In this document: positions 20,684-34,684 of the stretch, one piece after another
Position numbering within the stretch: position 1 is the first letter of the stretch
Layout: each line of letters starts with the position of its first letter
Origin: a bacterium
Lineage (GTDB): Bacteria > Zhuqueibacterota > Zhuqueibacteria > Residuimicrobiales > Residuimicrobiaceae
Length of the DNA: 64,000 nt
Assembly (NCBI GenBank): GCA_035388125.1
Contig: DAOOPF010000004.1
Location: 540 to 64,539 of the forward strand
Direction of reading: 5' to 3'
Position numbers and translations under genes: made by a program
Notes under the pieces: model-generated
What the model was told of the DNA's origin: nothing
What the model saw: only the letters and a program-made list of their open reading frames with translations
Database searches by the model: none

Positions 20684-21592
20684 CTATCTGGTGCAGATCA
20701 GTTTGCCGATGGCGATCGACAGCAATTTGCTGTCGGTGCTGTCGGCGCGCGAGGGGATCAGCACCGGTGCGGTTGAACCCATGATAACATGGCCCAGACG
20801 CAGGCGGGCGAAATAGGTTGTCGATTTGGCCAGCATGTTGGCCGATTCGATCTCCGGGCAGAGAAGGATATCGGCCTTGCCGGCCACGGGCGATTCGATC
20901 CCCTTGAGCGCTGCGGCTTCTGACGACACCGCATTGTCGAGTGCAAGCGGTCCGTCGATTATGCAGCCCTTGATCTGTCCGCGCTGATTCATCTTGGTCA
21001 GAACGGCGGCGTCGATGGTGGCCGGGAGGGCGGGATTGACTGTTTCCACCGCCGACAGCACTGCCACCAGCGGCTTCTCATTACCAAGAGCGCGAGCCAC
21101 CGCCACGGCGTTCTCGATGATCTCGATTTTTTGTTTCAGATCCGGCTTGAGGGTGACGCCGCCGTCGGTGATCATCACCAGCTTGTTGCCGGGACGGGAA
21201 GGCTCCTCAAAAACGAAGAGGTCGCTGAGCAGATGGCTGGAGCGCAGCCCATGTTCGCTGTCGAGCACCGCTTTGAGCAATGCGGCGGTCTTGATCTTGC
21301 CCTTGAGCAGGATGTGAGCCTCGCCGCTGCGTACAGCGGCTACGGCACTCCGGGCTGCAGCCTCTTCCGCAGCATCGCGGATTTGAAAAGGCATCTCTCC
21401 GGAGCCGAACAGCGTTTCGTACATGGTCCGGATCTTGTCCCTGTCGCCAAAGAGGAGCGCATCGGCCATGCCCAGTTCATGGGCGGCCGCCACCGCTCCC
21501 AGCGCGGCTTCGTCGTCGGCGGCGGCGACGGCTACGGTCACTTTGGGGCCAAGACGCGCCTTGTCGAGCAATTCCTCGAAGGAGGTAATCAT
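20684..21592 (-). CDS. ptb: Phosphate butyryltransferase, copy 2
   Basis: 302 aa paralog of 7477-8382 (VAVAAADDEAALGAV, MITDGGV, ADILLCPEIESANMLAK, PVLIPSRADS). Confidence 0.85.
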   Translation of the reverse strand: MITSFEELLDKARLGPKVTVAVAAADDEAALGAVAAAHELGMADALLFGDRDKIRTMYETLFGSGEMPFQIRDAAEEAAARSAVAAVRSGEAHILLKGKIKTAALLKAVLDSEHGLRSSHLLSDLFVFEEPSRPGNKLVMITDGGVTLKPDLKQKIEIIENAVAVARALGNEKPLVAVLSAVETVNPALPATIDAAVLTKMNQRGQIKGCIIDGPLALDNAVSSEAAALKGIESPVAGKADILLCPEIESANMLAKSTTYFARLRLGHVIMGSTAPVLIPSRADSTDSKLLSIAIGKLICTR

Positions 21593-21626
21593 GAATATCT
21601 CCTGGTTGGGCCATTCTGCGCTGGAT

Positions 21627-22703
21627 TTAATAACGCCGGGCTCTCTCCTGGCCGGTGAGAACGCGCCAAGCCCCCGCGGCCAGGGCCTCCATCTCCAGTT
21701 CGCCGGCGATGATCTTGATCGGGGCGATGAATTTGATGCGAGAGCTGATCATCTCTACCAGCAGTTTGGACCTGGCGAGTCCGCCGGTGAGGACAATTGC
21801 AGAGATATCCCCGCTGAGCACACAAGCCATGGCGCCGATCTCCTTGGCGATCTGGTAGGCCATGGCCGCAAAGACCTCTCCGGCTCTGGTATCTCCGGCG
21901 TTGATGCGCCGCTCGATCTCGCGCGCGTCAGTCGTTTCAAGGTAAGCCGCCAGTCCGCCCTTGCCCATCACCATCTGTTGAATCTCCTTTTTGGTGAACT
22001 CACCGGAGAAACAGAGGTCGATGAAAGGCTGCAGCGGCAGACTGCCTGTCCTTTCAGGCGAAAACGGGCCATCACTGGAGGCGTCATTGACATCAATGAT
22101 GCGGCCGCCCTTGACAGGTGCGACGGAGATGCCGCCGCCGAGGTGGGCGACGATAAAATTGTGCTCGTTCGGATCCAGTTTCATGGACTCCGCAGCCCAG
22201 ATGGCTGCCGCGCGCAGGCTGAGCGCGTGCGATAAAGCCCTCCGGGAGATCCGGGGATGCCCCGAATAGCGTGCAAGGCGGTCGAACTCATCGACCGAGA
22301 CCGGATCGACGATAAAGGCGGCACAGCCGTAAAGTTGGGCGATTTTATAGGCGATGGCGCAGCCCATATTGGAGCTGTGCTGTCCTTGCACCCCTTTTCT
22401 GGCATCCTCGATCATCGATTCATCGACGACATAGGTGCCTCGGTTCAGGGGTTTGAGCATCCCTCCCCTGCCGACAACCGCATCGAGAGAGAAGGCTTTA
22501 AGGTTCTGGCGGTTGAGGAATGCGATAACAAGGTCGGTGCGGTAATCAAACTGATCCCATAAACCCTGGTAGCGCGCAAGCTCTTCCCGGGTGTGAACGA
22601 GATTCTCTTCCGAGACCTTGTTTTTACCGGCGAAAAGCCCCACTTTGGTTGAGGTGGAGCCCGGATTAATCACCAAAATGAGGGGCGAAAGGCTATCTGT
22701 CAT
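21627..22703 (-). CDS. buk: Butyrate kinase, copy 2
   Basis: 358 aa. LILVINPGSTSTKVGLF, GRGG, HLGGGISV, VLTGGLA. Confidence 0.9.
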   Translation of the reverse strand: MTDSLSPLILVINPGSTSTKVGLFAGKNKVSEENLVHTREELARYQGLWDQFDYRTDLVIAFLNRQNLKAFSLDAVVGRGGMLKPLNRGTYVVDESMIEDARKGVQGQHSSNMGCAIAYKIAQLYGCAAFIVDPVSVDEFDRLARYSGHPRISRRALSHALSLRAAAIWAAESMKLDPNEHNFIVAHLGGGISVAPVKGGRIIDVNDASSDGPFSPERTGSLPLQPFIDLCFSGEFTKKEIQQMVMGKGGLAAYLETTDAREIERRINAGDTRAGEVFAAMAYQIAKEIGAMACVLSGDISAIVLTGGLARSKLLVEMISSRIKFIAPIKIIAGELEMEALAAGAWRVLTGQERARRY

Positions 22704-22763: not shown

Positions 22764-24494
22764 CTATTCCTGGTATACCGTCTTTTTGGTGTAGTGGGTA
22801 TGGAGAAGCTCATGGGCCTTGTGGCTGTTGGGCTCCCCGAGGAACTCCTTGTAGAGCTGCTGCACGGCCGGATTCTCATGCGATTTCCGGATGGTTTTGG
22901 CCTGATCAGCCTGGTAGATCGCTTCGGCGCGTTTTTTCCTGATCTCCAGGGAGGTGGGAACAGGTTGTCCGCCGCCGCCGATGCAGCCGCCGGGGCAGGC
23001 CATGATTTCGATAAAATGGTAATGGGCCTCACCGGAGACGATTTTTTTCATAAGCTGGCGGGCGTTGGCAAGACCGTTGGCGACGGCCGCTCGAACAGTG
23101 AGATCACCGACCTGGACCTCCGCCTCGCGTACGCCTTCCATACCGCGGACGGCCTTGATCTCGACCTGAGCCAGGGGTTTTCCGGTGACCACCTCATAGA
23201 CGGTGCGCAAGGCGGCTTCCATGACACCGCCGGTGTTGCCAAAGATGACTGCGGCACCGGTAGAGATCCCCAGCGGTTCATCGTACGACTCTTCCGGCAG
23301 ATCGGGCAGATGAATGCCGATCTGCTTCATCATCGTCGCTGCTTCACGGGTGGTCAGGACCGCGTCGACATCCTTAAAGCCGCTGCTGCTCATTTCGGCG
23401 CGGTCGCTTTCATATTTCTTCGCGGTGCAGGGCATGACCGAGACCGAAAAGATGTTTTTCGGATCAGCGCCGATCTTTTCCGCATAGTAGGTTTTGGCGA
23501 GGGCGCCGAACATCTGCTGCGGCGATTTGCAGGAGGAGACGTGCGGCAGGAGTTCAGGATAGAAATGCTCGATGAAATTGATCCATCCGGGGCTGCAGGA
23601 TGTCAACAGGGGCAATGTGCCGCCCGTTTTGAGCCGGTGAAGCAGTTCATAGCCCTCCTCCATGATGGTCAGATCGGCCGTGAAGTCGGTGTCGAAAACC
23701 TTGTCGAAACCGAGGCGGCGCAGTCCGGCCACCAGTTTGTCAGTGACCAGCGATCCGGCAGGCATGCCGAACTCTTCGCCGATGGCGACGCGGACGGCCG
23801 GTGCGGTCTGGACAACCACATGCAGGTCAGGATTATCGAGAGCATCCCAGACCCGCTGGATGTGGCTGTTCTCATAGAGGGCTCCAACCGGGCAGCGATC
23901 GATACACTGGCCGCAGGCGACGCAGGCGACCTCGCTTAGTCCCTTGTTGAATGGGGTATCGACCCAGACATCATAGCCCCGGCTCTCCATGCCGAGGGCG
24001 CTGACGCTCTGGACCATGGTGCAGGTCTGGACGCAGCGGCGGCAGAGGATACATTTCGAGGGATCACGAACGACTGCGGGACTGGAGGTATCCAGGTCAC
24101 CCTTGCGTTCGCGGTATTCGAAGCTGATCTCACGGATGCCGAGCTGGTCGGCGACTGCGCGCAGCTCGCAGGAGCCGTTGCGGACGCATTCAGTACAGCG
24201 CATGGGATGGCGCGAAAGCAGCAGCTCCATAGCGATCTTGCGCGACTCGCGCACCACCTTGGAATTGGTGGTCACTTCCATCCCCTCTGCGACCTTCCAG
24301 GAGCAGGCCGTGCGCAGGAGACGGTCGCCCTTGATCTCGACGACGCAGAGGCGGCAGGCCGAGACCGGGGGCAGATCGGGATGATAGCAGAGACGAGGGA
24401 TATTGATGAGTGCCTGTTCGGCGGCTTCGAGGACGGTGGCATTGGCCGGCACGGTAACCTGGCGTCCATCTATGGTCAAATTGACAGTATCCAA
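22764..24494 (-). CDS. hydA: [FeFe]-hydrogenase catalytic subunit, HydABC set 1 (group A3-like architecture)
   Basis: 576 aa. N-terminal 2Fe-2S fold, CILCRRCVQTC and CVACGQCIDRCP clusters. H-cluster motifs TSCSPGW, MPCTAKKYE, EIMACPGGCIGGGGQP. Confidence 0.9.
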   Translation of the reverse strand: MDTVNLTIDGRQVTVPANATVLEAAEQALINIPRLCYHPDLPPVSACRLCVVEIKGDRLLRTACSWKVAEGMEVTTNSKVVRESRKIAMELLLSRHPMRCTECVRNGSCELRAVADQLGIREISFEYRERKGDLDTSSPAVVRDPSKCILCRRCVQTCTMVQSVSALGMESRGYDVWVDTPFNKGLSEVACVACGQCIDRCPVGALYENSHIQRVWDALDNPDLHVVVQTAPAVRVAIGEEFGMPAGSLVTDKLVAGLRRLGFDKVFDTDFTADLTIMEEGYELLHRLKTGGTLPLLTSCSPGWINFIEHFYPELLPHVSSCKSPQQMFGALAKTYYAEKIGADPKNIFSVSVMPCTAKKYESDRAEMSSSGFKDVDAVLTTREAATMMKQIGIHLPDLPEESYDEPLGISTGAAVIFGNTGGVMEAALRTVYEVVTGKPLAQVEIKAVRGMEGVREAEVQVGDLTVRAAVANGLANARQLMKKIVSGEAHYHFIEIMACPGGCIGGGGQPVPTSLEIRKKRAEAIYQADQAKTIRKSHENPAVQQLYKEFLGEPNSHKAHELLHTHYTKKTVYQE

Positions 24495-24545
24495 AGCAAT
24501 CCTCCTAAATGATAAAATAGTGCATCAATTTTCCGAGACAGAAAA

Positions 24546-26174
24546 TCAGGCGGCGGCTTGATCGGCTGCTTCGAAAGAGCATTTCCCGGTCTTGCATTTC
24601 TTGTCGAGATGCTGTTCGAATTCTTCTCTGAAGTAGCGCAGGCAGCCGATGATGGGGATCGGGGCCGCCTGGCCCAGTCCGCAGAAGGCGCCTCTGGTCA
24701 TGGTCTGGGCGAGCTCCTCCATCAGCTGGAGGTCTTTGGCGGTGCCGAGGCCGGAGGTCATGCGCTCGAGGATCTCCAGGAGACGGCCGTTGCCCTCGCG
24801 GCATAGGGTACAAATGCCGCACGATTCGTGCACGAAGAACTCGACAAAGTTCTTGACCAGACCGACGACGCACTGGCTGTCATCTACAACCAACAGCGCG
24901 CCGGAGCCCATGCCCGCTCCGATTTCGCGCAGGGACTCGACACTCAGGGGCAAATCGAGGTGCTCGCTGGTCAGGATGCCGCCGGTTGTGCCGCCGAGCT
25001 GGGCCAGTTTGAAGCCTTTGCCATTGGGGATGCCGTGACCGATATCATAGATGATCTCCCGGAGGGTGATGCCCATCGGCACCTCGATGAGTCCGGGATT
25101 GTTGATATTGCCCACCATCGTAAAAACCTTGGTGCCGGGACTCTTGGCCGTGCCGATCCCCTTGTACCACTCTGCACCCCTGCGAATGATCTGGGGCACA
25201 TTGGCGAGGGTTTCGACATTGTTGACGATGGTCGGTTTGCCCCAGAGGCCGACGGAAGGCGGAAAGGGCGGCTTGTTGCGGGGTTCGCCGCGCTTGCCTT
25301 CGATCGATTCGATGAGGGCGGTCTCCTCACCGCAGATGTAGGCTCCGGCCCCTTCGCGGATCTCGATATCGAAAGCGAACGGGCTGCCGAAGACATTCTT
25401 GCCCAGCAGGCCGTGGGCGCGGGCCTGTTCGATGGCGCGCTTGACCCGGGCGATGGACATGTGGTACTCGCCGCGAATGTAGACATAGCCCTGATGAGCG
25501 CCGACAGCGTAACCGGCCAGGGCCATGCCTTCGATGACCGCGTGCGGGTCGCCTTCGAGAATGAGACGGTCCTTGAAAGTGCCAGGCTCGCCCTCGTCAG
25601 CATTGCAAATGATATACTTTTCATCGGATTTTTCTTTGGCAGCGAAGCCCCACTTCAGGCCGGTCGGGAAGAAAGCGCCGCCGCGGCCCTGCATCCCCGA
25701 CTTTTTGACCTCCTCCATGACCGCTTCGGGGGTCATTTCGGTGAGGGCTTTGCCGAGAGCTTCATAGCCATCCTGGGCAATATACTCCTCGATACTTTCG
25801 GGATCGATCACACCGGCGTTCTTGAGCACAATACGCTCCTGCTTGCAGATACGCGCCGACTTTTCACCCATCTCTCCTTCAACCGAAGGGACATCCAGAT
25901 AGTGCAGGCGCTCGACAACGCGGCCTTTGAGAAGATGTTCGGCGATGATCTCCGAGACATCTTCCATCTTGACGCCGACATAATAAACGGCATCGGGGAA
26001 TATAACCAGCACAACACCCTTGTCATAGATGCCGAGGCTACCGGTTTCGACCACGCGCACATCATCGGCGAGTCCGGCCAGGGCGACTTCCTTGACCAGG
26101 GCGTCTTTGACCGAGCGAGCGCCCTGCGATATGGTGTGGGCATCCATCGCCACCAGAATATGGATTCTATGCAT
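24546..26174 (-). CDS. hydB: NuoF-like flavoprotein subunit, HydABC set 1. Its N-terminal thioredoxin-like domain lacks cluster cysteines and there is no C-terminal 2x[4Fe-4S] domain
   Basis: 542 aa. GRGGAFFPTGLKW, ESCGICTLCREG. N-terminus VAMDAHTISQGA / ETGSLGIYDKG occupies the place of the CG..G / C..C motifs. Ends shortly after the LRYFREEF helix. Confidence 0.85.
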   Translation of the reverse strand: MHRIHILVAMDAHTISQGARSVKDALVKEVALAGLADDVRVVETGSLGIYDKGVVLVIFPDAVYYVGVKMEDVSEIIAEHLLKGRVVERLHYLDVPSVEGEMGEKSARICKQERIVLKNAGVIDPESIEEYIAQDGYEALGKALTEMTPEAVMEEVKKSGMQGRGGAFFPTGLKWGFAAKEKSDEKYIICNADEGEPGTFKDRLILEGDPHAVIEGMALAGYAVGAHQGYVYIRGEYHMSIARVKRAIEQARAHGLLGKNVFGSPFAFDIEIREGAGAYICGEETALIESIEGKRGEPRNKPPFPPSVGLWGKPTIVNNVETLANVPQIIRRGAEWYKGIGTAKSPGTKVFTMVGNINNPGLIEVPMGITLREIIYDIGHGIPNGKGFKLAQLGGTTGGILTSEHLDLPLSVESLREIGAGMGSGALLVVDDSQCVVGLVKNFVEFFVHESCGICTLCREGNGRLLEILERMTSGLGTAKDLQLMEELAQTMTRGAFCGLGQAAPIPIIGCLRYFREEFEQHLDKKCKTGKCSFEAADQAAA

Positions 26175-26643
26175 TGGAGGATCCTTTCACTTTGTAATCT
26201 TTCAATATCGCGACCGCTTTCTCCGGAGTGAGGTTGCCATAGACCTCATTGTCAATCATCATGACCGGTGCGACGGCGCAGAGCCCAAGGCAGCTGGTAA
26301 ACTCGAGAGTAAAGAGCCCATCCGGGGTGGTCTCGCCGGTCTCGATGCCGAGATAGCTCTTGATCTGGGTGAGAACCTCCTTGGAATCCTTGACATAACA
26401 TGGGGCATTGTTGCAGCAGCGCACGATATGTTTGCCCTTGGGCTTGGTGGTGAAAAGAGAGTAAAAAGTGGCGACGCCATAGATTTCGCTGAGGGGGATA
26501 TCGATCTTTTTGGCGATGCGGGTGAGAAGTTCCTCGGAGAGGTGACCATACTCCTTCTGCACATCCTTGAGGACGTAGATGAGCGGCGTTTTGGTCGCCG
26601 CATAGGAAGTGATGATTTTATCTACTGCAGTGTAATCCGTCAT
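26167..26643 (-). CDS. hydC: NuoE-like 2Fe-2S subunit, HydABC set 1
   Basis: Start moved to ATG 26643 (GGAGGA upstream; MTDYTAV...). VRCCNNAPCYV and TSCLGLCAVAP cysteine motifs. Confidence 0.85.
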   Translation of the reverse strand: MTDYTAVDKIITSYAATKTPLIYVLKDVQKEYGHLSEELLTRIAKKIDIPLSEIYGVATFYSLFTTKPKGKHIVRCCNNAPCYVKDSKEVLTQIKSYLGIETGETTPDGLFTLEFTSCLGLCAVAPVMMIDNEVYGNLTPEKAVAILKDYKVKGSSNA

Positions 26644-26707
26644 AGGTTCCTCCATAAAACTCGGCAAGTTACGTACATTAGCTCAACCCGGAATGGAGCT
26701 GCCGGCA

Positions 26708-27073
26708 TTATTCATGCGAAAAGACATGGCTGGAGACGATACGATCGGCCAGGACATGCTCATCGATTATTTTGCGGGCAATTTCCGGATTGATCTTGCC
26801 GTAAGTGGTGGTCACCCCCTTGTCGGTCTGCACCACCTGAACGAGGGGTTCCTGATCGCAGAAACCAAGGCAGCCGGTCTGGGTGACGACGACGTCGGTG
26901 ACACTTCTCTTGTTTATCTCATCAAGTATAGCGGACATGACCGCGCGTGCGCCGGCGGCAATCCCGCAGGTCCCCATGGCGATGACGATGCGGTATTTGG
27001 CCGATTGTTCACGGGCCGCCATCTCTTTTTTGGCCTTTTCCTTGATGGCGCGAAGATCTGACAGACTTTTCAC
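26708..27073 (-). CDS. Small thioredoxin-like [2Fe-2S] ferredoxin
   Basis: Start moved to GTG 27073 (GGAGGA 7 nt upstream), which avoids the overlap with 27198-27746. AMGTCGIAAGA and TGCLGFCDQEP motifs. Confidence 0.75.
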   Translation of the reverse strand: MKSLSDLRAIKEKAKKEMAAREQSAKYRIVIAMGTCGIAAGARAVMSAILDEINKRSVTDVVVTQTGCLGFCDQEPLVQVVQTDKGVTTTYGKINPEIARKIIDEHVLADRIVSSHVFSHE

Positions 27074-27197
27074 TCGGTATTCCTCCTGCAGTTGTGTTTC
27101 ACCGGCGGAGCGTGGAGATGATTCCGCCGATGTGGAGCTGTTGATTAAGTAAAATATACCGCAAAAATTCAATATCGGGCCGGCGCGGGGGGCAGGA

Positions 27198-27746
27198 TCA
27201 GGCGGTCGAGCCAATCGACAGCAGCTTCTCCTCAATCCATTTTTGCGCCGGTTCGACCAGCATGTACTGAGAACAATCCAGCTCGGCCATACGGGCATAG
27301 ATCCAGTAGGAATCAAAAGCAAAACAGCCCGTGTCTGTCCGGTGGCCGTAGACAAAATGGACATCCGGTGCGCCGATGATCAGATTGACCACGGTCTCGG
27401 CAATTCCGCCAAGTGGAGAGCGGTTCAGGCTGTTGTGGTGAAAAGAGGCGGTCAGCGTGGTGCCTTTGCCGAGTCTGGATTTGATCCTGAGCGTCCCGCC
27501 GCAGCTGGTCGCCGCCTGCCTGAGAAGAGGGAGCCCCATGCCGACAGGACGGGTGGTCCGCGTTGTCACAAAGGGATCAATGACCGCATCGATCATCTCC
27601 TGGCTCATGCCGCGTCCGTTATCACGGATGGTAATCGAAAACTGATTTTTCTCTACTGACTCTTCTATCCAGAGGATAACACGGCTGGCCTTCGCCTCGA
27701 TCGAGTTGGTGACGATATCCAGAATATGCAGGGAGAGTTCGCGCAC
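27198..27746 (-). CDS. Stand-alone GHKL (histidine-kinase-like) ATPase domain protein
   Basis: 182 aa. N-box HILDIVTNSIEA, G1 DNGRGM, G2 GMGLPL, GKGTT. No HisKA/DHp domain. Confidence 0.75.
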   Translation of the reverse strand: MRELSLHILDIVTNSIEAKASRVILWIEESVEKNQFSITIRDNGRGMSQEMIDAVIDPFVTTRTTRPVGMGLPLLRQAATSCGGTLRIKSRLGKGTTLTASFHHNSLNRSPLGGIAETVVNLIIGAPDVHFVYGHRTDTGCFAFDSYWIYARMAELDCSQYMLVEPAQKWIEEKLLSIGSTA

Positions 27747-27767
27747 AAGCTGTCCTTATTCTCTGTT

Positions 27768-28559
27768 TCAGTGCACAGCTGCCGCACATGAGGCGCCGCT
27801 GCGGCCGGCCTCTTCCGGTTCAAGGACAGCGATCTGACGGCCGTTCTCCCCCCGGCAAGCCAGCAGAAGCTCGGGGAAAGAGGGTTCTGACATCCTGAAC
27901 CAGCTTCGTGCAGTGCCGATCTGTTCGACGTCATGGGCATCAGAAGCAGTGATCAGCTGCATCCCGCTGCCGCTGTAACGTTCCACCGCGTCGGCCAGGT
28001 TGGCACGGCGGGAGAGTTCAACGATCCTGAAGGGCAAGTCGGCGGGCAGGAAGCCCAGAGTGCGGACCATACTGTTGGCGCGCCGGTCGATGTGGGCGGG
28101 ATAGATGATACCCTCCCTGGCGACGGTCTCACGCACAACCTGATCATAGGGCGCATGTATGGGCAGACCTAGCAAGCGCATATTTTCGGCGACGATATTT
28201 TCCCGCTCATCGACGACAAGCTGCGGTCCCCACAAGGATGGGTCGTTTTCCCCCTCCTGCAGCTGACTGTAGAGCCACTCCTGAAAATCAAAGAGCTGTT
28301 CCAGTGCGGGGAAGAGTGTGATCATGTGGATCTCCTCCCGTGTGGATACCTCGATGCCCGGAAAGACCTGGAGCCGGGTTCCCTGAGCGGCGCGCTGGAC
28401 GGCGGGGACATTCTCCGCCGAATTGTGATCAGTAATCGCAATAAAATCCAGCCCCTGGTGGATGGCGGTCCGGACAATATCCTGCGGCCCCATGGTCAAT
28501 TCAGAGCAGGGTGACAGCACGGTATGAATATGGAGGTCACCAACATACCAGCGCAGCAT
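27768..28559 (-). CDS. PHP-domain phosphoesterase
   Basis: 263 aa. GDLHIHTVLSPC, FIAITDHNS, ASDAH motifs. Confidence 0.75.
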   Translation of the reverse strand: MLRWYVGDLHIHTVLSPCSELTMGPQDIVRTAIHQGLDFIAITDHNSAENVPAVQRAAQGTRLQVFPGIEVSTREEIHMITLFPALEQLFDFQEWLYSQLQEGENDPSLWGPQLVVDERENIVAENMRLLGLPIHAPYDQVVRETVAREGIIYPAHIDRRANSMVRTLGFLPADLPFRIVELSRRANLADAVERYSGSGMQLITASDAHDVEQIGTARSWFRMSEPSFPELLLACRGENGRQIAVLEPEEAGRSGASCAAAVH

Positions 28560-28904
28560 TCAATTGCTCCCGCGTAGACCCAGGGCATAGAGCCGGCCCG
28601 CAATATCAAAGGCATTCTGGTCGCAGCTATAGAGGGCGATCTTTTTGATGTTGGCTTTGTCGATCGCGTCCATGGCGGGCACGGCGCCGTTGGTGAAGAT
28701 GACCGCGGTCAGCTCCTTGAAAAAAGCGATCGCGATGACATTCTCATGGGCCTGATTGGTGATCCAGATGGCATCGCGCGGCACTCTGGCCATCACATCG
28801 CTGAGGATGTCGGAAATGCATGCAGAAGATACATCCCGTTCTTTGGAATTAGCCATTGTAAGGCAATTTAGAGGGATTTCTTCAAGTATTTTTATAAATT
28901 CCAT
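28560..28904 (-). CDS. DRTGG-domain protein
   Basis: 114 aa. Single small domain ending ...IFTNG..P......A....I.L......F..AGRLY, recalled as DRTGG. Abuts the PHP gene with no gap. Confidence 0.6.
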   Translation of the reverse strand: MEFIKILEEIPLNCLTMANSKERDVSSACISDILSDVMARVPRDAIWITNQAHENVIAIAFFKELTAVIFTNGAVPAMDAIDKANIKKIALYSCDQNAFDIAGRLYALGLRGSN

Positions 28905-28913
28905 GGCCTGTCT

Positions 28914-30110
28914 TTACTCTCTTGGCGTGTGGGGTAATGAGTTCACGGCAGTGAAACTTCCGCCGGTATCCTTGCCAAACTGCACCAGGTCGATCACGAT
29001 GGCGCCCATATCGATGGTCTCCCCTCCTTCCACGAGGACGACATCGCCGGTTCTGAGGTTTTTTTTAAGCCAGTTGCCGGCCTCCTCGACGGTGGAACAG
29101 GTTATGACCCGTTTGCGGCGGCTGGTGGCGGTGGTGATGGCCGATGCAGCGGCGCCGGCGTAATCTCCGACCAGGACGGCGATATCGATTGGCATGCCGG
29201 CGATATAATGGCCCATCATGGTATGCATCACCCGGGTTTGTCCCCCGATCTCAGTCAAATTCCCCATGACGAAGATAAGCCGTCTGGCATGGCGGCGAAA
29301 GTTGATCAATGATTTTGTTGATTTGTAGAATGACTGGGGAGTAGCGTCATGGGTGTCGTCGAGGATGTAAAAGCCAGGGAAGGCGTGCAATCTGCCGCGT
29401 CCGTCGGGAAGGGTGAAACCGTTTTCAAGGGCATTTTTAATGGTTTCGCGTGGCACACCGAGTTCCGAAGCGGCGGCGTAGGCGGCGAGGGCATTGTAGA
29501 CATCGCCGAGGGAATAGAGAGCCATCCTGAGGTGCACTTCTTCAGTACCGTGCCTGTGGATGGTGAAGCTGGTGCCTTCCGGCCCGAGATGTCGAATGGA
29601 ATCGGCGTAATAGTCCGATACCGAACTCAGACCGTAATAGAGCACTCTGCCGGCCAGATTCAGCCCCATCATACGCGTGAATTCATTGTCGCGATTGAGG
29701 ATGGCGATGCCGTCCGGGTCAAGGGCGGTGAGCAGTTCAAGCTTGGCAGCGGCGATATCATCGATCTTGTCATAGTGAGAGAGGTGAGCTTCACCGACAT
29801 TGGTGATGATCGCCATATGGGGTTTGATCAGGTGGGCGGCGGTGCGGCTTTCCCCCGGGATGGCGGCGCCGATTTTCAGGACCGCCCAGTCCAGCGGCGG
29901 GTGGATGGTGGTGAGTTCCCGGCCGATCTCTGCCGCGGTATCGGAGTTGCAGGAAAACTCGTAAACGCGGCCGGCCTGGCGCAGGATATGGGCGAGCATG
30001 GACCTGGTCGTCGTCTTGCCATTGCTGCCTGAAATAGCGATGAATGGAAAAGTCAGATGGACACGATATGCTTCAGCACCAGCGATGGCCTGATCAAGCA
30101 TCATGGTCAT
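28914..30110 (-). CDS. Mur-ligase-family protein (MurF-like central and C-terminal domains, no N-terminal domain)
   Basis: 398 aa. P-loop ISGSNGKTTT, ITNVGEAHL, DDTHDATP. Confidence 0.7.
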   Translation of the reverse strand: MTMMLDQAIAGAEAYRVHLTFPFIAISGSNGKTTTRSMLAHILRQAGRVYEFSCNSDTAAEIGRELTTIHPPLDWAVLKIGAAIPGESRTAAHLIKPHMAIITNVGEAHLSHYDKIDDIAAAKLELLTALDPDGIAILNRDNEFTRMMGLNLAGRVLYYGLSSVSDYYADSIRHLGPEGTSFTIHRHGTEEVHLRMALYSLGDVYNALAAYAAASELGVPRETIKNALENGFTLPDGRGRLHAFPGFYILDDTHDATPQSFYKSTKSLINFRRHARRLIFVMGNLTEIGGQTRVMHTMMGHYIAGMPIDIAVLVGDYAGAAASAITTATSRRKRVITCSTVEEAGNWLKKNLRTGDVVLVEGGETIDMGAIVIDLVQFGKDTGGSFTAVNSLPHTPRE

Positions 30111-30236
30111 ACTTTGAATTCACCGTTAGGGTTAACCCGTATGGAGCAGGCGGAACCGGCTCCGATCGAACCGTTCAGAAAGGAAAATACATAAATTTTT
30201 GAAAAGAAGAAAGAAAATAAATCGGCAGGTCTCCTT

Positions 30237-31715
30237 TTATCGTTCAGCGAGCGGAAGGAAAAGGGTAAATGTAGTTCCAACCTCGTATTCCGATTCAGCT
30301 TCAATGCGGCCGGCATAGCTGTCGACGATCTTTTTGACCAAGGTAAGCCCCAGTCCGGTGCCGGTGATGCTGCGGGTGTGGGCATTTTTGGCGCGGAAAA
30401 ACTCCTCGAAAAGCCGTTCTTTCTCTTCAGGCTTCATGCCGATGCCGGTATCGCGTACGACCAGCTTGGCATAGCCCTTTTCCCGGCTGGTATGCAGGGT
30501 TATTGAGCCCTGAGGCCGGTTATACTTGACGGCATTGGAGATCAGGTTGGTGAGGAGCCGCTGGATCTCTTCCTTGTCGGCGTCGATCAGCAAGGCCTCG
30601 GTGAGCTCAGTCTCAAGGGTCAGTCCATTCTTTTCGATCTCATTGGTGAAGAAATCGGCCACAGATTGGGTCATGAGAGAGAGATCCAGCCGTTCGATCT
30701 CGCGGCGGACCTTGCCGGCCTGGATACGGGAGATATTGAGCAGGTCATTGATGAGGGTAATCAGGCTTTTACTGCGCTCAAGGGAGCGGCGAAGATAGCT
30801 GTCGTAGGTCTCGGGTTCATCACCCAGCGTTTTATCGACAACCATTTCGAGGTAGCCCTGGATGGCGGACAATGGCGCCTTGAGTTCATGGGCAGCCATG
30901 TTGACGAACTGGGACTTGAGCAGTTCCAGCTGCTTGAGCTCGGATATATCACGGAGAACAGAGACGTAGCCGATCAGGCGGTTTTGATCATCACGGATGG
31001 TCGTGGTATTGGCCATCACGACCAGTTTTGCCGGCGGATGGATCACGAACTCCTGCTGCAGAGCCTGGAGGCTGTCTTTCTGCCTGAAAATGTCAGCGAT
31101 CAGCTCCTGAAATTGTTCCGGCAGCACCTCGCGGATGGAGCGGCCGATGACCAGCTCCTTTTCAAGTTCGAGCAGGCGGGGAAACTGGGGGTTAAAGAGG
31201 ACCACCTCCTCATCCTGATTGAGCACAACGATGCCGTCGGCGATCGAATTGATGATGGTGCGGATGCGGGACTTTTCCTGCACGATCTCGAGCAGGCGTC
31301 TCTCCTGTTCGATTCTAAGCTGGCGCGCTTCAAGGATATACCAGCGCCTTTCAACAGCGCGGTCAAAAACCAGCTGGATCTCCTCAGGCGCGAAGGGCTT
31401 GGCGATATAGTGGTAGGCGCCCAGCCTGGTGGTCTCGACGGCTGTTTCGATGGAGGCATAGGCCGTGCAGATGACGCATATCGCCTCCGGGAACCTGGCC
31501 TTGATGGCGCCGAGCACCTCCACCCCATCGATATCGCCGATTTTGAGGTCGAGAAAGTAGATATCGAACTCTTCAGCAGTGCCTTTGTCGATACCAAGCC
31601 GTCCGGTTTCGGCGGTTTCGACCCGATGGCCTTGCGCCTCAAAGAGGCGCCGAATGCCCTCCCGCATGCCGAATTCGTCATCGACGACGAGGATATTTGC
31701 CCGTTCGATCTTCAT
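30237..31715 (-). CDS. Hybrid sensor: receiver + PAS + HisKA + HATPase histidine kinase
   Basis: 492 aa. ILVVDDE...YFLDLKIGDIDG...YIAKPF receiver, PAS-like middle, H-box AAHELKAPL, then NAVKYN, DTGIGM, GTGLGL. Confidence 0.85.
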   Translation of the reverse strand: MKIERANILVVDDEFGMREGIRRLFEAQGHRVETAETGRLGIDKGTAEEFDIYFLDLKIGDIDGVEVLGAIKARFPEAICVICTAYASIETAVETTRLGAYHYIAKPFAPEEIQLVFDRAVERRWYILEARQLRIEQERRLLEIVQEKSRIRTIINSIADGIVVLNQDEEVVLFNPQFPRLLELEKELVIGRSIREVLPEQFQELIADIFRQKDSLQALQQEFVIHPPAKLVVMANTTTIRDDQNRLIGYVSVLRDISELKQLELLKSQFVNMAAHELKAPLSAIQGYLEMVVDKTLGDEPETYDSYLRRSLERSKSLITLINDLLNISRIQAGKVRREIERLDLSLMTQSVADFFTNEIEKNGLTLETELTEALLIDADKEEIQRLLTNLISNAVKYNRPQGSITLHTSREKGYAKLVVRDTGIGMKPEEKERLFEEFFRAKNAHTRSITGTGLGLTLVKKIVDSYAGRIEAESEYEVGTTFTLFLPLAER

Positions 31716-31763
31716 AGCTGCCCGATTTGAGTGGTGTAAATGTGCTGCGGAAGAGACAGCGCT

Positions 31764-31787
31764 CTCACCGGTCGTGCGACCGGTGAG
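31764..31787 (-). other. Perfect palindromic hairpin in the 90-nt gap between a receiver gene and the hybrid kinase gene
   Basis: CTCACCGGTCG-tg-CGACCGGTGAG. Confidence 0.5.
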
Positions 31788-31805
31788 CCTGCAGTATACG
31801 TACGC

Positions 31806-32219
31806 TCAGTGCCGGGGAGCTTCAGGAGTATCAAAAAAACGTTCCTTGATAAACGCGAGCAGTTCACGCGGTGGAATCGGTTTATCCAGGTATTCGTCGG
31901 CCTGGATCCATTTACGCTCCTCCTCTGTCTGGGTGGAGAAGCGGATGCCGGTCTCGTGGCTCGCAGCGGTCATGATCACCACCGGAACACTGACGCCCTC
32001 GGGCAGGCTCTTGATGCGGTGACAGAGGACAAAGCCCGAGTCAAAGTGCTCCATGGCCAGATCGACCATCACCAGATCGGGGAGATAGGTTTTAAACAGT
32101 TCAAGTCCTTCGGCGGCTGTGTTGGCTGTGGCCACTTCAAAACCGGCCTTTTCGAGGACCGGCACGTAGATCTGAAGCAGATCATAGTCGTCATCGACCA
32201 TCATGATTTTTTTCTTCAT
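31806..32219 (-). CDS. Single-domain response regulator (receiver only)
   Basis: 137 aa. IMMVDDD, LVMVDLAM, VIMTAA, YLDKP. Confidence 0.85.
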   Translation of the reverse strand: MKKKIMMVDDDYDLLQIYVPVLEKAGFEVATANTAAEGLELFKTYLPDLVMVDLAMEHFDSGFVLCHRIKSLPEGVSVPVVIMTAASHETGIRFSTQTEEERKWIQADEYLDKPIPPRELLAFIKERFFDTPEAPRH

Positions 32220-32246
32220 GGCGCTGGTATCTTCCTTTGTCAGGTT

Positions 32247-32636
32247 TTATTTATCCTGCAGCATGGCGTGTACCTTGGCGAGAAGAAGTTCCTTCTGGAC
32301 AGGTTTTTCGATAAAACTGTCCACAGGATTCCACTCGACATCGGGGCCAATGCGCAGATTGAAGGGATGTTCCCGGTTTACACCGGTCAGCATCAGGATG
32401 GGGGTGTGGCGGATCGCCTCATGCTTGCGAATCTGCCGTGCCACCTCGAATCCTTCACCGACCGTGCTCATCATTACGTCCAGAATGACCAGATCCGGCC
32501 GTTCCGCGATCACCTTTTCCAGTCCTTCGGCTCCGCTGAAAGCGGCCACAACCTCATAGCCGGCCATGGTGAGAAGGGCGCGGTTCAGTTCGACGATATC
32601 GATGTCATCGTCGATCAGTAAAATCTTTTTACTCAT
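32247..32636 (-). CDS. Single-domain response regulator (receiver only)
   Basis: 129 aa. ILLIDDD, LVILDVMM, ILMLTG, FIEKP. Its ATG overlaps the stop of the upstream kinase gene (ATGA at 32633-32636). Confidence 0.85.
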   Translation of the reverse strand: MSKKILLIDDDIDIVELNRALLTMAGYEVVAAFSGAEGLEKVIAERPDLVILDVMMSTVGEGFEVARQIRKHEAIRHTPILMLTGVNREHPFNLRIGPDVEWNPVDSFIEKPVQKELLLAKVHAMLQDK

Positions 32637-34684
32637 TGCATGCTCTCCTGCACAGCTTTGAAATCGAAAGCAGCGGCATGGACTGCATTCTGAACCGGCA
32701 ATTCCACCGTGAATGTCGATCCATGATCGACTTCACTCTTGACGGTGATGCTGCCGCGATGCATTTTAATGATGCCATAGGCGATGGCCAGCCCGAGGCC
32801 GGTCCCCTTGCCGATCTGCTTGGTGGTGAAGAAAGGTGTGAAGAGTTTGTTCATATTTTCAACCGGGATGCCCCCGCCGGTATCGATAAAGGCGATGCGC
32901 ATTTGCTGCCCGTCGGCTGTGACTGTGGCCTGGATGGTCAGTGTGCCTCCCTCAGGCATGGCTTCAGCGGCGTTGACCGCCAGGTTGAGAAAAACCTGAT
33001 AAATCTGATCAAAATCGACCTCGATGAGAGGAAGATCAGGGTCAAGCCTGGCGACAACATGGGTCATCTGAAAAAGCGGCTGATTGAAGGCGACAGAGAT
33101 GAGCTTGTCGAGGATCTCCTGCAGAGTCACCTTGCGCAAATTGAGTTTGCCCTGACGGGCGAAGTTGAGCAGCCCGGCGACGATCTTTTGACACCGCTTG
33201 GCTTCATCCATGATGAAGTGCAAATCCTTGCTCTTCTGGTCGTCCTCCTTCAACTGTTGCAGGAGGAGATGAGCGTAAAGCATGATCGAACCGAGGGGAT
33301 TATTGACCTCATGGGCAACCCCGGCTGCCAGCTGTCCGATCGAGGCCAGTTTCTCATGCTGAATGAGCTGCTCCTGGGCGTCTGCCAGATCGCCCAGAGA
33401 TTCCTGCAGCTCTTTCTGGGTGTGCTGCAGTTCCTCGATAACGTAAGGAAGACACATCTCTTCCTCAGCAAAGCCCTGAAAGACCGCTTTGGCGTATTCG
33501 CGGCAGGTTTCATAGCCGCAGGCTCCGCAGTTCAGTTCGTCGGAGGAGATGGCTTTCTTGATCTCCTTGAGGATCAGCCTGATCTCGTCCTCCGTGGGTT
33601 CAGGTTTTTCCTTGACCGCGGGTTTGAAGGAGCGGTGGATCACGACATCCTGATACTGGAGGATGGCCTTTTTCCATTCCGCATAGTTGGTCTGCATGCG
33701 CAGCGAATCGGTATAGGCGACGATCTTTTGTTTGCGGGTGAAAAAATTCAGCGAGGTGTCCGTGAAAGGCCCGCTGATACACCCCTCGCAGAAGAGGATA
33801 TCAACCAGACTCGCCTTGACCTGATGGTTTTTCAGGCTTTCCAGCAATTTGAGCACGCGCTGTTTGCCTTCGGTGACGACCACTTCGTTGTTCATCAAAT
33901 CGAAAGGCAGGCCGGCACTGCGCAACAGCCCTCCAGAGACCGGATAGAGGCGTCCGAGATAGGCATGAGGCGGATCAAAGGCGACCGGCTCAGCCTGGGC
34001 GGGGTCGATCCCGCGGCGTTTCCAGAGTTCCTTCAGTTCTGCGTAGGTGAGCACCTCGTCCACGGCGTCCGAGACCTCGGGGTCGAGCATCTCGACTTTT
34101 TTAGCCGTGCAGGGACCGATGAAGACCGTCCTGACCTCTTCGCCATAGCAGCGGCGGACAACCCTTCCCATAGCGACCATGGGGCTGACTATCGGGGCCA
34201 GATTGGGCACCAGTTCGGGAGCCGTGCGTTCGACCAGTTCATAGATAACCGGACAGGAGCTGGTAATCAGCGGCAGGGCGATCTCCTGGCCGTCCAGAGT
34301 CTGTTTGGAGTTGACCAGACGGTAGTATTCACGATTGATCAGATCCGCACCGTAGGCGACCTCGACCACGTGCTGAAAACCCGCCTTGTGCAGGGCCCCG
34401 GCAATCTGTTCCCCCTCCAGATCCGGCAGGCCGGCCGGAAAAGAGGGAGCGATCATGGCGACGACAGGATGGCCGCTCTTGAGAAAGCGCTCGACCGCCT
34501 CCACCCCGCTCTTCACCGCTTTGGCCCCCTGGGTGCAGACGGTGACGCAATGTCCGCAGCCCAGACAAAGCTCCTCCACTACCTTCGCCTGGCCTTTGAC
34601 GACCATGATGGCTTTGGCGGGGCACTCGCGGATGCAGGAATAGCAGCTTTTACAACGTTCCTCTATGGTCCATATGACGGACAT
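32633..34684 (-). CDS. Sensory [FeFe]-hydrogenase-like protein fused to a histidine kinase (HydS-type H-domain + extra Cys4 motif + HisKA/HATPase)
   Basis: 683 aa. CKSCYSCIRECP and CLGCGHCVTVC ferredoxin motifs. H-domain motifs ITSSCPV (P1), GPCTAKKVE (P2), DILFCEGCISG (P3). CGACGYETC motif. Coiled coil, H-box VAHEVNNPL, then NAAEAM, DTGGGI, GTGLGL. Confidence 0.8.
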   Translation of the reverse strand: MSVIWTIEERCKSCYSCIRECPAKAIMVVKGQAKVVEELCLGCGHCVTVCTQGAKAVKSGVEAVERFLKSGHPVVAMIAPSFPAGLPDLEGEQIAGALHKAGFQHVVEVAYGADLINREYYRLVNSKQTLDGQEIALPLITSSCPVIYELVERTAPELVPNLAPIVSPMVAMGRVVRRCYGEEVRTVFIGPCTAKKVEMLDPEVSDAVDEVLTYAELKELWKRRGIDPAQAEPVAFDPPHAYLGRLYPVSGGLLRSAGLPFDLMNNEVVVTEGKQRVLKLLESLKNHQVKASLVDILFCEGCISGPFTDTSLNFFTRKQKIVAYTDSLRMQTNYAEWKKAILQYQDVVIHRSFKPAVKEKPEPTEDEIRLILKEIKKAISSDELNCGACGYETCREYAKAVFQGFAEEEMCLPYVIEELQHTQKELQESLGDLADAQEQLIQHEKLASIGQLAAGVAHEVNNPLGSIMLYAHLLLQQLKEDDQKSKDLHFIMDEAKRCQKIVAGLLNFARQGKLNLRKVTLQEILDKLISVAFNQPLFQMTHVVARLDPDLPLIEVDFDQIYQVFLNLAVNAAEAMPEGGTLTIQATVTADGQQMRIAFIDTGGGIPVENMNKLFTPFFTTKQIGKGTGLGLAIAYGIIKMHRGSITVKSEVDHGSTFTVELPVQNAVHAAAFDFKAVQESMQ

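What the first reader, a model, noticed from the sequence alone, without database searches (positions are those of the whole stretch)
27198..30110. Uncharacterised four-gene set (Mur-ligase-like, DRTGG, PHP, stand-alone GHKL ATPase) wedged between the phosphorelay and HydABC set 1
- The four genes are tightly packed and co-directional, with gaps of 0-22 nt. None has an obvious role in hydrogen catalysis.
- They are a MurF-like ATP-dependent ligase lacking its N-terminal domain (GSNGKTT P-loop), a 114-aa DRTGG protein, a PHP phosphoesterase, and a 182-aa GHKL ATPase with no phospho-accepting His domain.
- I recall DRTGG, PHP and kinase-like ATPase genes next to NADH-dependent [FeFe]-hydrogenase operons in thermophilic Firmicutes, with no assigned function.
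- Finding the trio here, in what looks like a very different lineage and now joined by a Mur-ligase-like enzyme, argues for a conserved but unexplained regulatory or modification module.
- One speculation is nucleotide- or amino-acid-ligation-dependent control of the hydrogenase or its regulators.
Basis: partly seen in the sequence, partly recalled or inferred. Interest (0 to 1): 0.6.

Follow-up and report, generated by a model that had tools for sequence, protein, structure and literature searches.

The report
Hydrogenase accessory genes plus odd Mur-ligase
Three of the four genes are the widespread but still unexplained helper set found beside NADH-linked iron hydrogenases, while the fourth is a cell-wall-ligase relative with an altered active site that only one group of uncultured KSB1 bacteria has placed at the head of their hydrogenase operons.

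Summary
All four genes are real, at the stated coordinates, on the minus strand, with gaps of 9, 0 and 21 nt.

They are not one module.

**DRTGG, PHP and GHKL.** These form the accessory cassette of HydABC/NuoF-type operons.
- I re-found it in Clostridia, Halanaerobiales, Anaerolineae, Bacteroidota and Desulfobacterales.
- It is uncharacterised.
- Fusions of HydS-like sensors to a C-terminal DRTGG domain point to signalling.

**The Mur-like gene ("MurL").** This is a separate, lineage-restricted add-on.
- It occurs in 19 of 167 genomes of the phylum.
- It lies beside hydrogenase, hydG or buk genes wherever its context could be read, in at least six arrangements.
- Sister families carry the same array without it.
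- Another family has MurL but no cassette.
- In two metagenome contigs the set splits into MurL-PHP and DRTGG-GHKL.

**What MurL is.**
- It is not MurF. The genome has a true MurF elsewhere.
- MurL lacks the UDP-binding domain and MurF-specific motifs.
- It forms its own clade with a Calditrichia paralogue that is not hydrogenase-linked.
- The invariant Mg-binding Glu of Mur ligases is Lys in 22 of 22 members.

MurL's function remains unknown. Interest is moderate.

The parts
28914..30110 (-). MurL: a MurF-derived Mur-ligase-fold protein with no N-terminal domain. P-loop is G28-T34. Lys79 replaces the invariant Glu. His109, Lys123, Asn206, Arg238 and Asp252 are retained.
   Evidence: Pfam and NCBIfam. 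Clade membership. Residue comparison. AF2 model has pLDDT 89.6 and its closest solved structure is MurF 4qf5 (TMq 0.8).
28560..28904 (-). Stand-alone DRTGG-fold protein (114 aa). Family-invariant residues are D32, S35, T49 and G103.
   Evidence: Fusions to HydS-like sensors.
27768..28559 (-). PHP metal-dependent phosphoesterase (263 aa). The HxH, DH, E, H and DxH motifs can be read in the sequence.
   Evidence: Nearest solved relatives by sequence are EndoQ and a 5'-3' exoribonuclease.
27198..27746 (-). Stand-alone GHKL ATP-binding protein (182 aa). It has the N box, DxGxG and GxG motifs plus a conserved C-terminal half.
   Evidence: AF2 model (pLDDT 89). Fold search.
30111..30236 (-). AT-rich intergenic region upstream of MurL with a promoter-like element (TTTTCAAAAATTTATGTATTTTCC). 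Similar elements occur at the same place in related arrays, with or without MurL.
   Evidence: Read from sequence only and untested. No sigma-54 motif was found, no minus-strand terminator-like site lies between the genes of the set, and there is no Rfam match.
27074..27197 (-). Intergenic region before the ferredoxin gene. It holds a TTGAAT-N17-CTTAAT promoter-like site and an AGGAGG sequence 8 nt before a GTG start.
   Evidence: Read from sequence only.
26708..27073 (-). Thioredoxin-like 2Fe-2S ferredoxin. It is one of the commonest neighbours of the GHKL gene across phyla.
22764..26667 (-). HydC1 (26167-26667), HydB1 (24546-26174) and HydA1 (22764-24494): hydrogenase set 1.
30237..34684 (-). 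Context: the HydS-like sensor fused to a histidine kinase (32633-34684), two receiver proteins, and the REC-PAS-HK kinase (30237-31715).
20684..22703 (-). Context: butyrate kinase (21627-22703) and phosphate butyryltransferase (20684-21592), at the tail of the same array.

Best explanation
The region is a composite of two separable things.

**(1) DRTGG, PHP and GHKL**
- Together with the adjacent 2Fe-2S ferredoxin, they are the conserved accessory cassette of NuoF-type (HydABC/Bfu) enzymes.
- My reading is that the cassette is an ATP-driven signalling switch. This is inferred, not shown.
- The GHKL protein binds ATP and works with the DRTGG protein.
- In other bacteria the DRTGG domain is fused to the C-terminus of HydS-type hydrogen sensors. 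It starts at residues ~430-465 of the fusion proteins, close to where this window's sensor begins its HisKA domain (residue 450).
- The PHP phosphoesterase would reset the state.
- Here the cassette coexists with a classical HydS-histidine-kinase phosphorelay.

**(2) MurL**
- It is a lineage-specific add-on, placed as the first gene behind an internal promoter-like region of the hydrogenase/butyrate-kinase operon.
- It is a selected, folded, MurF-derived protein that has lost the UDP-binding domain and the MurF substrate motifs.
- Its nucleotide site is rewired: Glu to Lys at position 79 and Asn to Asp at position 203, with Glu107 newly conserved.
- Most likely it still binds ATP and ligates, or senses, a non-nucleotide carboxylate compound.
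- It is probably co-expressed with fermentative H2 production but is not needed by the hydrogenase itself.
For: **Cassette**
- It recurs beside HydB/HydC/HydA in 79 loci from Clostridia, Halanaerobiales, Anaerolineae, Bacteroidota, Desulfobacterales and KSB1.
- More than 580 species genomes carry the GHKL homologue.
- Five 523-561 aa proteins join Fer4, Fe_hyd_lg_C and FeS domains to a C-terminal stretch homologous to this DRTGG protein. Pfam's own DRTGG model reaches its cut-off in two of them.
- The GHKL motifs are invariant across phyla.
- The literature notes a histidine-kinase-like ATPase next to TamHydS and calls the sensor's partners unknown (PMC8163306, PMC13104023).

**MurL distribution**
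- It is present in 19 of 167 genomes of the phylum.
- Wherever its context could be read (three of the 19 sit on short contigs), it lies next to hyd, hydG or buk genes, in at least six architectures.

**MurL sequence and selection**
- dN/dS is 0.15, against 0.05-0.07 for neighbouring genes.
- It has its own clade, with 100/100 support.
- A canonical MurF lies elsewhere in the same genomes.
- Position 79 is Lys in 22 of 22 clade members, but Glu in 11 of 11 Calditrichia paralogues and 71 of 71 MurFs.
- The AF2 model is confident and MurF-like.
Against: - No experiment exists for any of the four proteins.
- All MurL synteny comes from one class of one phylum. Shared descent could therefore explain part of it.
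- The sister clade in Calditrichia is not hydrogenase-linked. It sits near LapAB, SPOR and menaquinone genes.
- The array is complete without MurL in family f3.
- PHP's nearest solved relatives by sequence are nucleases, not protein phosphatases.
- Over its full length the GHKL model resembles MutL/GyrB ATPase domains (TMq about 0.5) as much as histidine-kinase catalytic domains. 'Kinase' is therefore not established.
- Co-transcription is inferred only from spacing and the absence of terminator-like sites.
Confidence: 0.55

Rival explanations
1. MurL is a cell-envelope or peptidoglycan-related paralogue, for example one acting on a non-UDP muropeptide or peptide. Under this view its place beside hydrogenase genes reflects inherited gene order, or loose co-regulation with fermentation, and not any action on the hydrogenase system.
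For: - The sister clade in Calditrichia lies in a block with LapA, LapB, a SPOR-domain gene and menaquinone genes.
- In family f10, MurL is directly followed by a DUF3078 outer-membrane-type protein.
- MurL is dispensable for the array in family f3.
- All hydrogenase-linked cases come from one class.
Against: - The linkage survives at least six rearrangements. These include moves to the head of hydrogenase set 2 and to hydG alone.
- MurF substrate motifs and two invariant catalytic residues are changed specifically in the hydrogenase-linked clade.
- The genomes already have a full MurF.
Confidence: 0.3
2. MurL is a pseudoenzyme. It would be an ATP/ADP-binding sensor or scaffold that no longer ligates, comparable to the plant MurE-like subunit of the plastid RNA polymerase.
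For: - The invariant Mg-binding Glu is Lys in 22 of 22 members, and another invariant Asn is Asp.
- MurL evolves two to three times faster than its neighbours.
- A non-catalytic Mur-fold subunit (8r6s_Q) appears among the fold matches.
Against: - The P-loop Lys and Thr, His109, the Lys at the carbamylated-lysine position (K123), Asn206, Arg238 and Asp252 remain invariant.
- Glu107, conserved in this family but in only 30% of MurFs, could take over metal binding.
Confidence: 0.15
3. All four genes form one obligate regulatory or modification module.
For: - Spacing is tight in the window and in the same-family arrays L009, L015, L016, L017, L018, L177 and L189.
- In the split arrays MurL stays next to PHP.
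Against: - MurL occurs without the trio in family f10.
- The trio occurs without MurL in family f3 and in every other phylum sampled.
- Variants lack DRTGG (L075) or GHKL (L173).
Confidence: 0.07
4. The GHKL protein is not a kinase. It would be an ATP-driven clamp or assembly factor of the MutL/GyrB/Hsp90 type, acting on the HydABC-ferredoxin complex.
For: - Full-length fold matches are to MutL, PMS2, GyrB and ParE ATPase domains over 170-185 columns. Histidine-kinase catalytic domains match only about 100 columns.
- Its most constant neighbours are the ferredoxin and HydB, often inside the hydC-hydB interval.
Against: - By sequence it is closest to histidine-kinase catalytic domains.
- TM-scores to MutL/GyrB are only about 0.5.
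- In one genome it follows a HydS-kinase phosphorelay with no hydABC genes nearby (L179).
Confidence: 0.2

Closest known systems
Accessory genes around group D (M2e) putative sensory [FeFe]-hydrogenases such as TamHydS of Thermoanaerobacter mathranii, upstream of bifurcating HydABC
   Same: - Small DRTGG protein(s), a PHP phosphoesterase and a ~180-aa histidine-kinase-like ATPase lie next to NuoE/NuoF/HydA genes and a 2Fe-2S ferredoxin.
- The literature mentions the kinase-like ATPase and states that the sensor's partners are unknown (PMC8163306, PMC13104023).
   Different: - No group D sensor is flanked by DRTGG genes here.
- Instead the sensor is a HydS-like protein fused to HisKA-HATPase, with three receiver-containing proteins.
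- There is only one DRTGG gene.
- A Mur-ligase-fold gene precedes the set.
MurF (UDP-MurNAc-tripeptide:D-Ala-D-Ala ligase, TIGR01143; structures 4qf5, 4cvm, 1gg4)
   Same: - The middle and C-terminal domain folds match (TMq about 0.8).
- The P-loop, His, the Lys at the carbamylated-lysine position, and Arg and Asp residues are retained.
   Different: - No N-terminal UDP-binding domain.
- 212 bits against a cut-off of 288.6.
- A separate clade in the tree.
- Glu to Lys at position 79 and Asn to Asp at position 203. The NxNNxxGxP, YNANP and KGSR motifs are lost.
- A true MurF is encoded elsewhere in the genome.
Sub-type V BfuTABC clusters (Hydrogenedentota, Caldithrix abyssi; PMC11406978)
   Same: A bifurcating-type HydABC set is followed by a group C3 sensor that carries a histidine kinase domain.
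   Different: That paper does not describe PHP, DRTGG, GHKL or Mur-like genes.
SpoIIAB/SpoIIAA/SpoIIE-type partner switching
   Same: By analogy only: a small GHKL ATP-binding protein, a small partner protein with invariant Ser and Thr residues, and a phosphoesterase.
   Different: - The partner has a DRTGG fold, not STAS.
- The hydrolase is PHP, not PP2C.
- The match to the SpoIIAB model is 31 bits against a cut-off of 135.
- No sigma factor is involved.

Membership tests
MurF (TIGR01143) | Score at or above the curated family cut-off (288.6 bits) | tested here: not met
   212.1 bits, aligned from profile position 65 onward. The genome's other copy on contig C14 scores 390.5 bits.
MurF (TIGR01143) | N-terminal UDP-MurNAc-binding domain (PF01225) | tested here: not met
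   Only Mur_ligase_M and Mur_ligase_C are found. Homologues P0001-P0050 lack PF01225, whereas nearly all canonical MurFs listed from P0051 on carry it.
MurF (TIGR01143) | Invariant Mur-synthetase residues: P-loop Lys, Mg-binding Glu, His, Asn..Asn, Arg and Asp (from established knowledge of the family) | tested here: not met
   Lys32, His109, Asn206, Arg238 and Asp252 are kept. The Glu is Lys79 in 22 of 22 clade members, and the first Asn is Asp203. All 71 MurFs compared have Glu (pairwise alignment).
MurF (TIGR01143) | Falls within the MurF clade in a phylogeny | tested here: not met
   The proteins lacking the N-terminal domain form their own clade (100/100), separate from 25 canonical MurFs, including the genome's own MurF.
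Mur ligase superfamily (PF08245 + PF02875) | Middle ATP-binding domain and C-terminal domain above the Pfam cut-offs, with a Mur fold | tested here: met
   113.6 and 44.8 bits. AF2 model has pLDDT 89.6, and the top fold matches are MurF, MurC and MurE.
FolC / cyanophycin synthetase / MurT | Score at the family cut-off | tested here: not met
   FolC 26 bits against 162.65. Cyanophycin synthetase 58 against 850. MurT 35 against 800.
DRTGG-PHP-GHKL accessory cassette of HydABC/NuoF-type operons | A ~115-aa DRTGG protein, a ~260-aa PHP protein and a ~182-aa GHKL protein, co-directional and next to NuoE/NuoF/HydA genes and a 2Fe-2S ferredoxin | tested here: met
   Window proteins are 28-47% identical to the Firmicutes, Chloroflexi and Bacteroidota counterparts.
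DRTGG-PHP-GHKL accessory cassette of HydABC/NuoF-type operons | A HydS-like sensor without an output domain, flanked by two DRTGG genes (the commonest Firmicutes layout) | tested here: not met
   The window has one DRTGG gene. Its sensor (32633-34684) carries HisKA and HATPase_c. The layout DRTGG, HydS-like, DRTGG, PHP is seen in most Clostridia loci.
Two-component histidine kinase (for the 182-aa GHKL protein) | A HisKA/DHp phospho-acceptor domain joined to the catalytic domain | tested here: not met
   Only HATPase_c, residues 7-103.
SpoIIAB/RsbW anti-sigma serine kinases | Family-level score, with STAS and PP2C partners | tested here: not met
   TIGR01925 scores 31 bits against a cut-off of 135. 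No STAS or PP2C gene lies in the set.
PHP phosphoesterases (PF02811) | Domain above the cut-off and metal-binding motifs present | tested here: met
   39.2 bits. DLHIHT, TDHN, GIEV, IHM, AHID and SDAH can be read in the translation. Activity and substrate were not tested.

The most novel reading that the evidence does not exclude
MurL is a hydrogenase-operon-specific enzyme or nucleotide sensor derived from MurF. Its rewired active site (Lys79 and Asp203 in place of Glu and Asn) would let it modify a component of the HydABC, ferredoxin or signalling system, or report the ATP/ADP state to it. That would be a first link between Mur-ligase chemistry and hydrogen metabolism.
Probability: 0.17. Interest if true: 0.75.

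Novelty: new variant of a known kind. Interest (0 to 1): 0.45.

Why it matters
**The cassette**
- DRTGG, PHP and GHKL are the leading unexplained candidates for the signalling partners of sensory [FeFe]-hydrogenases, a question the field states openly (PMC13104023).
- This window shows the cassette persisting beside a conventional sensor-kinase phosphorelay.
- Related arrays show which genes travel together: DRTGG with GHKL, and MurL with PHP. That narrows the pairings worth testing.

**MurL**
- It is a clean example of a cell-wall ligase fold recruited into a redox operon, with a clade-specific change of an invariant catalytic residue.
- If it acts on the hydrogenase system, that would be new biochemistry.
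- If not, it is a modest case of paralogue drift in an uncultured phylum.

Tried and rejected
**Searches that found nothing**
- A sigma-54 promoter upstream of MurL in 13 related loci: none found.
- Known RNA families in the two intergenic regions and in the long gaps of MurL-less arrays: none.
- MurL remnants in those gaps (L185, L187): none, which leaves the question of recent decay unresolved.
- Full-text searches for DRTGG + PHP + hydrogenase, PHP domain + bifurcating hydrogenase, and Mur ligase + hydrogenase + KSB1: nothing relevant.

**Ideas rejected**
- That the Calditrichia short MurF-like protein is those organisms' only MurF. Three of the four Calditrichia genomes searched have a full-length MurF above the cut-off, and the fourth has a truncated hit.

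**Method notes**
- The single-protein locus search for MurL found only one close relative. A profile search was needed.
Full report
**Observation**

The four genes exist as described. Minus-strand ORFs lie at 28914-30110 (398 aa), 28560-28904 (114 aa), 27768-28559 (263 aa) and 27198-27746 (182 aa), separated by 9, 0 and 21 nt.
- Pfam gives Mur_ligase_M plus Mur_ligase_C for the first, with no N-terminal Mur domain.
- The second matches DRTGG only below threshold (16.6 bits against 25.2).
- The third has PHP plus PHP_C.
- The fourth has HATPase_c and no HisKA.
- The weak DRTGG call is sound at family level. Of 50 homologues, 46 match DRTGG.

Upstream lie a REC-PAS-HisKA-HATPase kinase, two receiver proteins and a HydS-like sensor fused to a histidine kinase. 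Downstream lie a 2Fe-2S ferredoxin, HydC, HydB and HydA, then butyrate kinase and phosphate butyryltransferase.

No terminator-like site on the minus strand separates these genes. AT-rich promoter-like elements lie in the 126-nt gap before the Mur-like gene and in the 124-nt gap before the ferredoxin gene. This is read from sequence only.

**The trio is a known, widespread, uncharacterised cassette**

The 182-aa GHKL protein belongs to a large family of stand-alone proteins of about 182 aa. There are 3258 hits, labelled KSB1, Calditrichota, Actinobacteria, Bellilinea and Thermoanaerobacterales. A profile search of species genomes returned more than 580 matches.

I annotated the best 79 loci by BLASTP with the window's own proteins.
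- The recurring order in Clostridia, Halanaerobiales, Bacteroidota and Desulfobacterales is DRTGG, HydS-like, DRTGG, PHP, HydC, GHKL, ferredoxin, HydB, HydA.
- Anaerolineae show variants in which GHKL precedes PHP and no HydS-like gene was detected.
- Among 42 loci with at least 5 kb on both sides, 37 have PHP, 36 DRTGG, 37 HydB, 32 the ferredoxin and 28 HydA within 6 kb. Only one has the Mur-like gene, and that locus is from KSB1.

The literature held here mentions only a 'histidine kinase-like ATPase' beside TamHydS. It states that the sensor's interaction partners remain to be identified (PMC8163306, PMC13104023). Earlier notes of this scan list the cassette in more than 300 genomes. I used those notes as leads and re-derived the synteny independently.

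**Clues to how the trio works**

*DRTGG.* An exhaustive search with the DRTGG protein found 766 cluster representatives. Most are about 115 aa.
- Five are 523-561 aa proteins in which a Fer4, Fe_hyd_lg_C, FeS sensor core is followed by a C-terminal DRTGG-homologous stretch. Two are FeS-DRTGG proteins.
- In the window's own sensor the same core is followed by HisKA starting at residue 450.
- The DRTGG domain therefore sits at about the place of a transmitter domain. I take this as evidence that the cassette is signalling machinery.
- DRTGG proteins have invariant Asp32, Ser35, Thr49 and Gly103, and near-invariant His53. These are candidate acceptor residues, untested.

*GHKL.* The ATP-binding motifs are invariant across phyla.
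- By sequence it is closest to histidine-kinase catalytic domains.
- The confident full-length model (pLDDT 89) aligns over 170-185 columns with MutL, PMS2, GyrB and ParE ATPase domains at TM about 0.5. Kinase catalytic domains cover only about 100 columns.
- 'Kinase' is therefore not established.

*PHP.* The usual metal-binding motifs are present. Its nearest named relatives are nuclease-type PHP domains such as EndoQ, TrlF and RNase AM-like proteins. A protein-phosphatase role is only an analogy.

**The Mur-like gene is a different matter**

- Its best family match is MurF at 212 bits, below the cut-off of 288.6 and aligned from profile position 65.
- The genome has a true MurF on another contig, at 390.5 bits.
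- Homologues of 41% identity or more form a compact set of about 36 clusters. All are around 390 aa, lack PF01225, and are labelled 'bacterium', KSB1 or Calditrichaeota. Canonical MurFs begin at 31-34% identity.
- In a maximum-likelihood tree, the proteins lacking the N-terminal domain form a clade with 100/100 support, apart from 25 canonical MurFs including the genome's own.
- Within that clade the hydrogenase-linked group (97/91) is sister to a Calditrichia group (100/100).
- The Calditrichia genes are not near hydrogenase genes. They lie beside LapA/LapB, SPOR and menaquinone genes.
- Three of the four Calditrichia genomes searched, and one KSB1 family-f10 genome, also have a full-length MurF above the cut-off. 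The fourth Calditrichia genome has only a truncated hit.

**Distribution and synteny of MurL**

Among 167 species genomes of the window's phylum, MurL is in 19. The same order includes a genome labelled candidate division KSB1.
- Family f1: 12 of 14 genomes.
- Family f4: 2 of 8.
- Family f10: all 5.
- Family f3: none of 19.
- The GHKL gene is in 66 genomes. It is in every genome of the window's order but in none of f10.

Wherever MurL's context could be read, it sits beside hydrogenase, hydG or buk genes. In the arrays where its upstream side could be read, it is the first gene of the co-directional block. Three of the 19 genomes (G103, G105, G112) were not inspected, two of them because the contigs are short. 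The layouts differ:
- The window's layout: L009, L015-L018, L177, L189.
- NtrC, MurL, DRTGG, PHP, ferredoxin, HydC1, HydB1, HydA1, Buk, Ptb, with the GHKL gene elsewhere behind a second sensor-kinase relay: L173 and L179.
- MurL, PHP, GHKL, ferredoxin, HydCBA: L075.
- MurL, ferredoxin, HydC, HydB, DUF3078, HydA: L011 and L176. In L011 a radical-SAM/BATS gene follows.
- MurL, DUF3078, HydG: L175. HydG scores 555 bits to TIGR03955.
- MurL, DUF3078, Buk, Ptb, followed by ORFs that I read as HypA, HypB and HypF from their translations only: L028.
- REC, MurL, PHP, HydC2, HydB2, HydA2, sensor-kinase, REC, REC, REC-PAS-HK, DRTGG, GHKL, ferredoxin, HydC1, HydB1, HydA1, Buk, an unassigned ORF, Ptb, FtsH: L188/L190, and the same order as far as DRTGG in L010.

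Conversely, the f3 loci, and G108 in the window's own family, carry the array with the kinase gene followed by DRTGG (PHP in L184). The three fetched to their ends are complete. The spacing is immediate or leaves a 450-620 nt gap with no MurL remnant.

Three conclusions follow:
- MurL and the trio are separable.
- MurL is dispensable for the array.
- MurL nevertheless remains linked to hydrogenase-related genes through repeated rearrangement.

In the split layout MurL travels with PHP, and DRTGG travels with GHKL.

**MurL's active site**

A MAFFT alignment compared 22 hydrogenase-linked members, 11 Calditrichia members and 71 MurFs.

Retained residues:
- the P-loop (Gly28 to Thr34);
- Thr103 and Asn104;
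- His109;
- Lys123, at the position of the carbamylated lysine;
- Asn139 and Asp141;
- Asn206, Arg238, Asp252 and Ser260.

Changed residues:
- The Glu of the 'ELG' strand end is one of the invariant Mur-synthetase residues and the Mg-binding residue. This is established family knowledge, corresponding to Glu157 in MurD.
- It is Lys79 in all 22 hydrogenase-linked proteins. It is Glu in all 11 Calditrichia and all 71 MurF sequences. The pairwise HMMER alignment to A. baumannii MurF shows the same pairing.
- The first Asn of the HN..N motif is Asp203.
- The NxNNxxGxP, YNANP and KGSR motifs of MurF are gone.
- Glu107, in 'GEAH', is conserved in the family lacking the N-terminal domain but in only 30% of MurFs. 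It could substitute as a metal ligand.

The AF2 model is confident (pLDDT 89.6, pTM 0.87) and closest to MurF structures (TMq about 0.8).

The gene is under purifying selection. dN/dS is 0.15 against its closest relative. That is two to three times more relaxed than GHKL, DRTGG or the kinases, at 0.05-0.07.

MurL is therefore a selected, folded Mur-type protein with an altered nucleotide site and a different substrate. These data cannot settle whether it still ligates.

**Verdict**

The finding is real and the synteny claim holds, but the 'four-gene set' is a composite.
- The trio is the already-recognised, unexplained cassette. It occurs here in a distant phylum and beside a classical sensor-kinase relay.
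- The new element is MurL, a clade-specific MurF derivative with a Glu-to-Lys change that heads hydrogenase and butyrate-kinase operons in one class of uncultured bacteria.
- I commit, at moderate confidence, to MurL being co-expressed with fermentative H2 metabolism while acting on a non-nucleotide substrate.
- A direct role on the hydrogenase system is possible (about one in six).
- An envelope-related role with inherited or loosely co-regulated gene order is the main rival.

**Limits**
- All loci are from metagenome-assembled genomes.
- Neighbour annotation relied on BLASTP with the window's proteins against stop-to-stop ORFs.
- Transcript data could not be obtained.

Noticed in passing
L179 (G098:C65), locus coordinates 8716-16274: In one genome of the same order, the GHKL gene is detached from any hydABC set. 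It closes a cluster of two HydS-kinase genes, a short ORF matching only the NtrC receiver domain, two receivers and a REC-PAS-HK kinase. This ties the GHKL gene to the sensor relay rather than to the enzyme.
   Followed up: partly
P0295, P0297, P0316, P0360, P0372 (523-561 aa); P0262, P0274: Natural fusions of a HydS-like sensor core (Fer4, Fe_hyd_lg_C, FeS) to a C-terminal DRTGG domain, plus shorter FeS-DRTGG proteins.
   Followed up: partly
L011 14204-15061; L028 940-1791; L175 9923-10792: A DUF3078 protein (a family I recall as outer-membrane beta-barrel; not checked here) is encoded inside or at the head of hydrogenase/hydG/buk operons in family f10, directly after MurL in two of the three cases.
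   Followed up: partly
L013 476-10240; L014 314-7360; L012 1-11206: The Calditrichia sister paralogue of MurL sits in a conserved block. In L013 and L014 the block is LapA, LapB, SPOR, Crp, GAF-kinase and a VitK2_biosynth gene. In L012 it lies downstream of a full men gene cluster.
   Followed up: no
L189 18388-19134; L190 16072-16821: Related arrays carry extra genes between buk and ptb that the window lacks: a SpoIIE/PP2C phosphatase followed by a DUF1189-like gene in L189, and a DUF1189-like gene in L190.
   Followed up: no
window 30111-30236, and the same position in L009, L015-L018, L177, L185, L187: A recurring AT-rich promoter-like element lies just after the REC-PAS-HK stop codon. L016 has a TAnnTTTG-type box. 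In MurL-less arrays L185 and L187 it is followed by a 450-620 nt untranslated gap with no Rfam match.
   Followed up: partly
G073:C73:7803-8945 (L176 7812-9047): The MurL homologue of this genome contains one in-frame TGA. This could be a pseudogene, a sequencing error or recoding.
   Followed up: no
L188 9226-9774 versus window 38933-39307: In the split arrays a full 182-aa receiver protein (110 bits) precedes MurL-PHP at the head of hydrogenase set 2. In the window, the gene just upstream of hydC2 is a weak, degenerate 124-aa receiver (32.6 bits).
   Followed up: no
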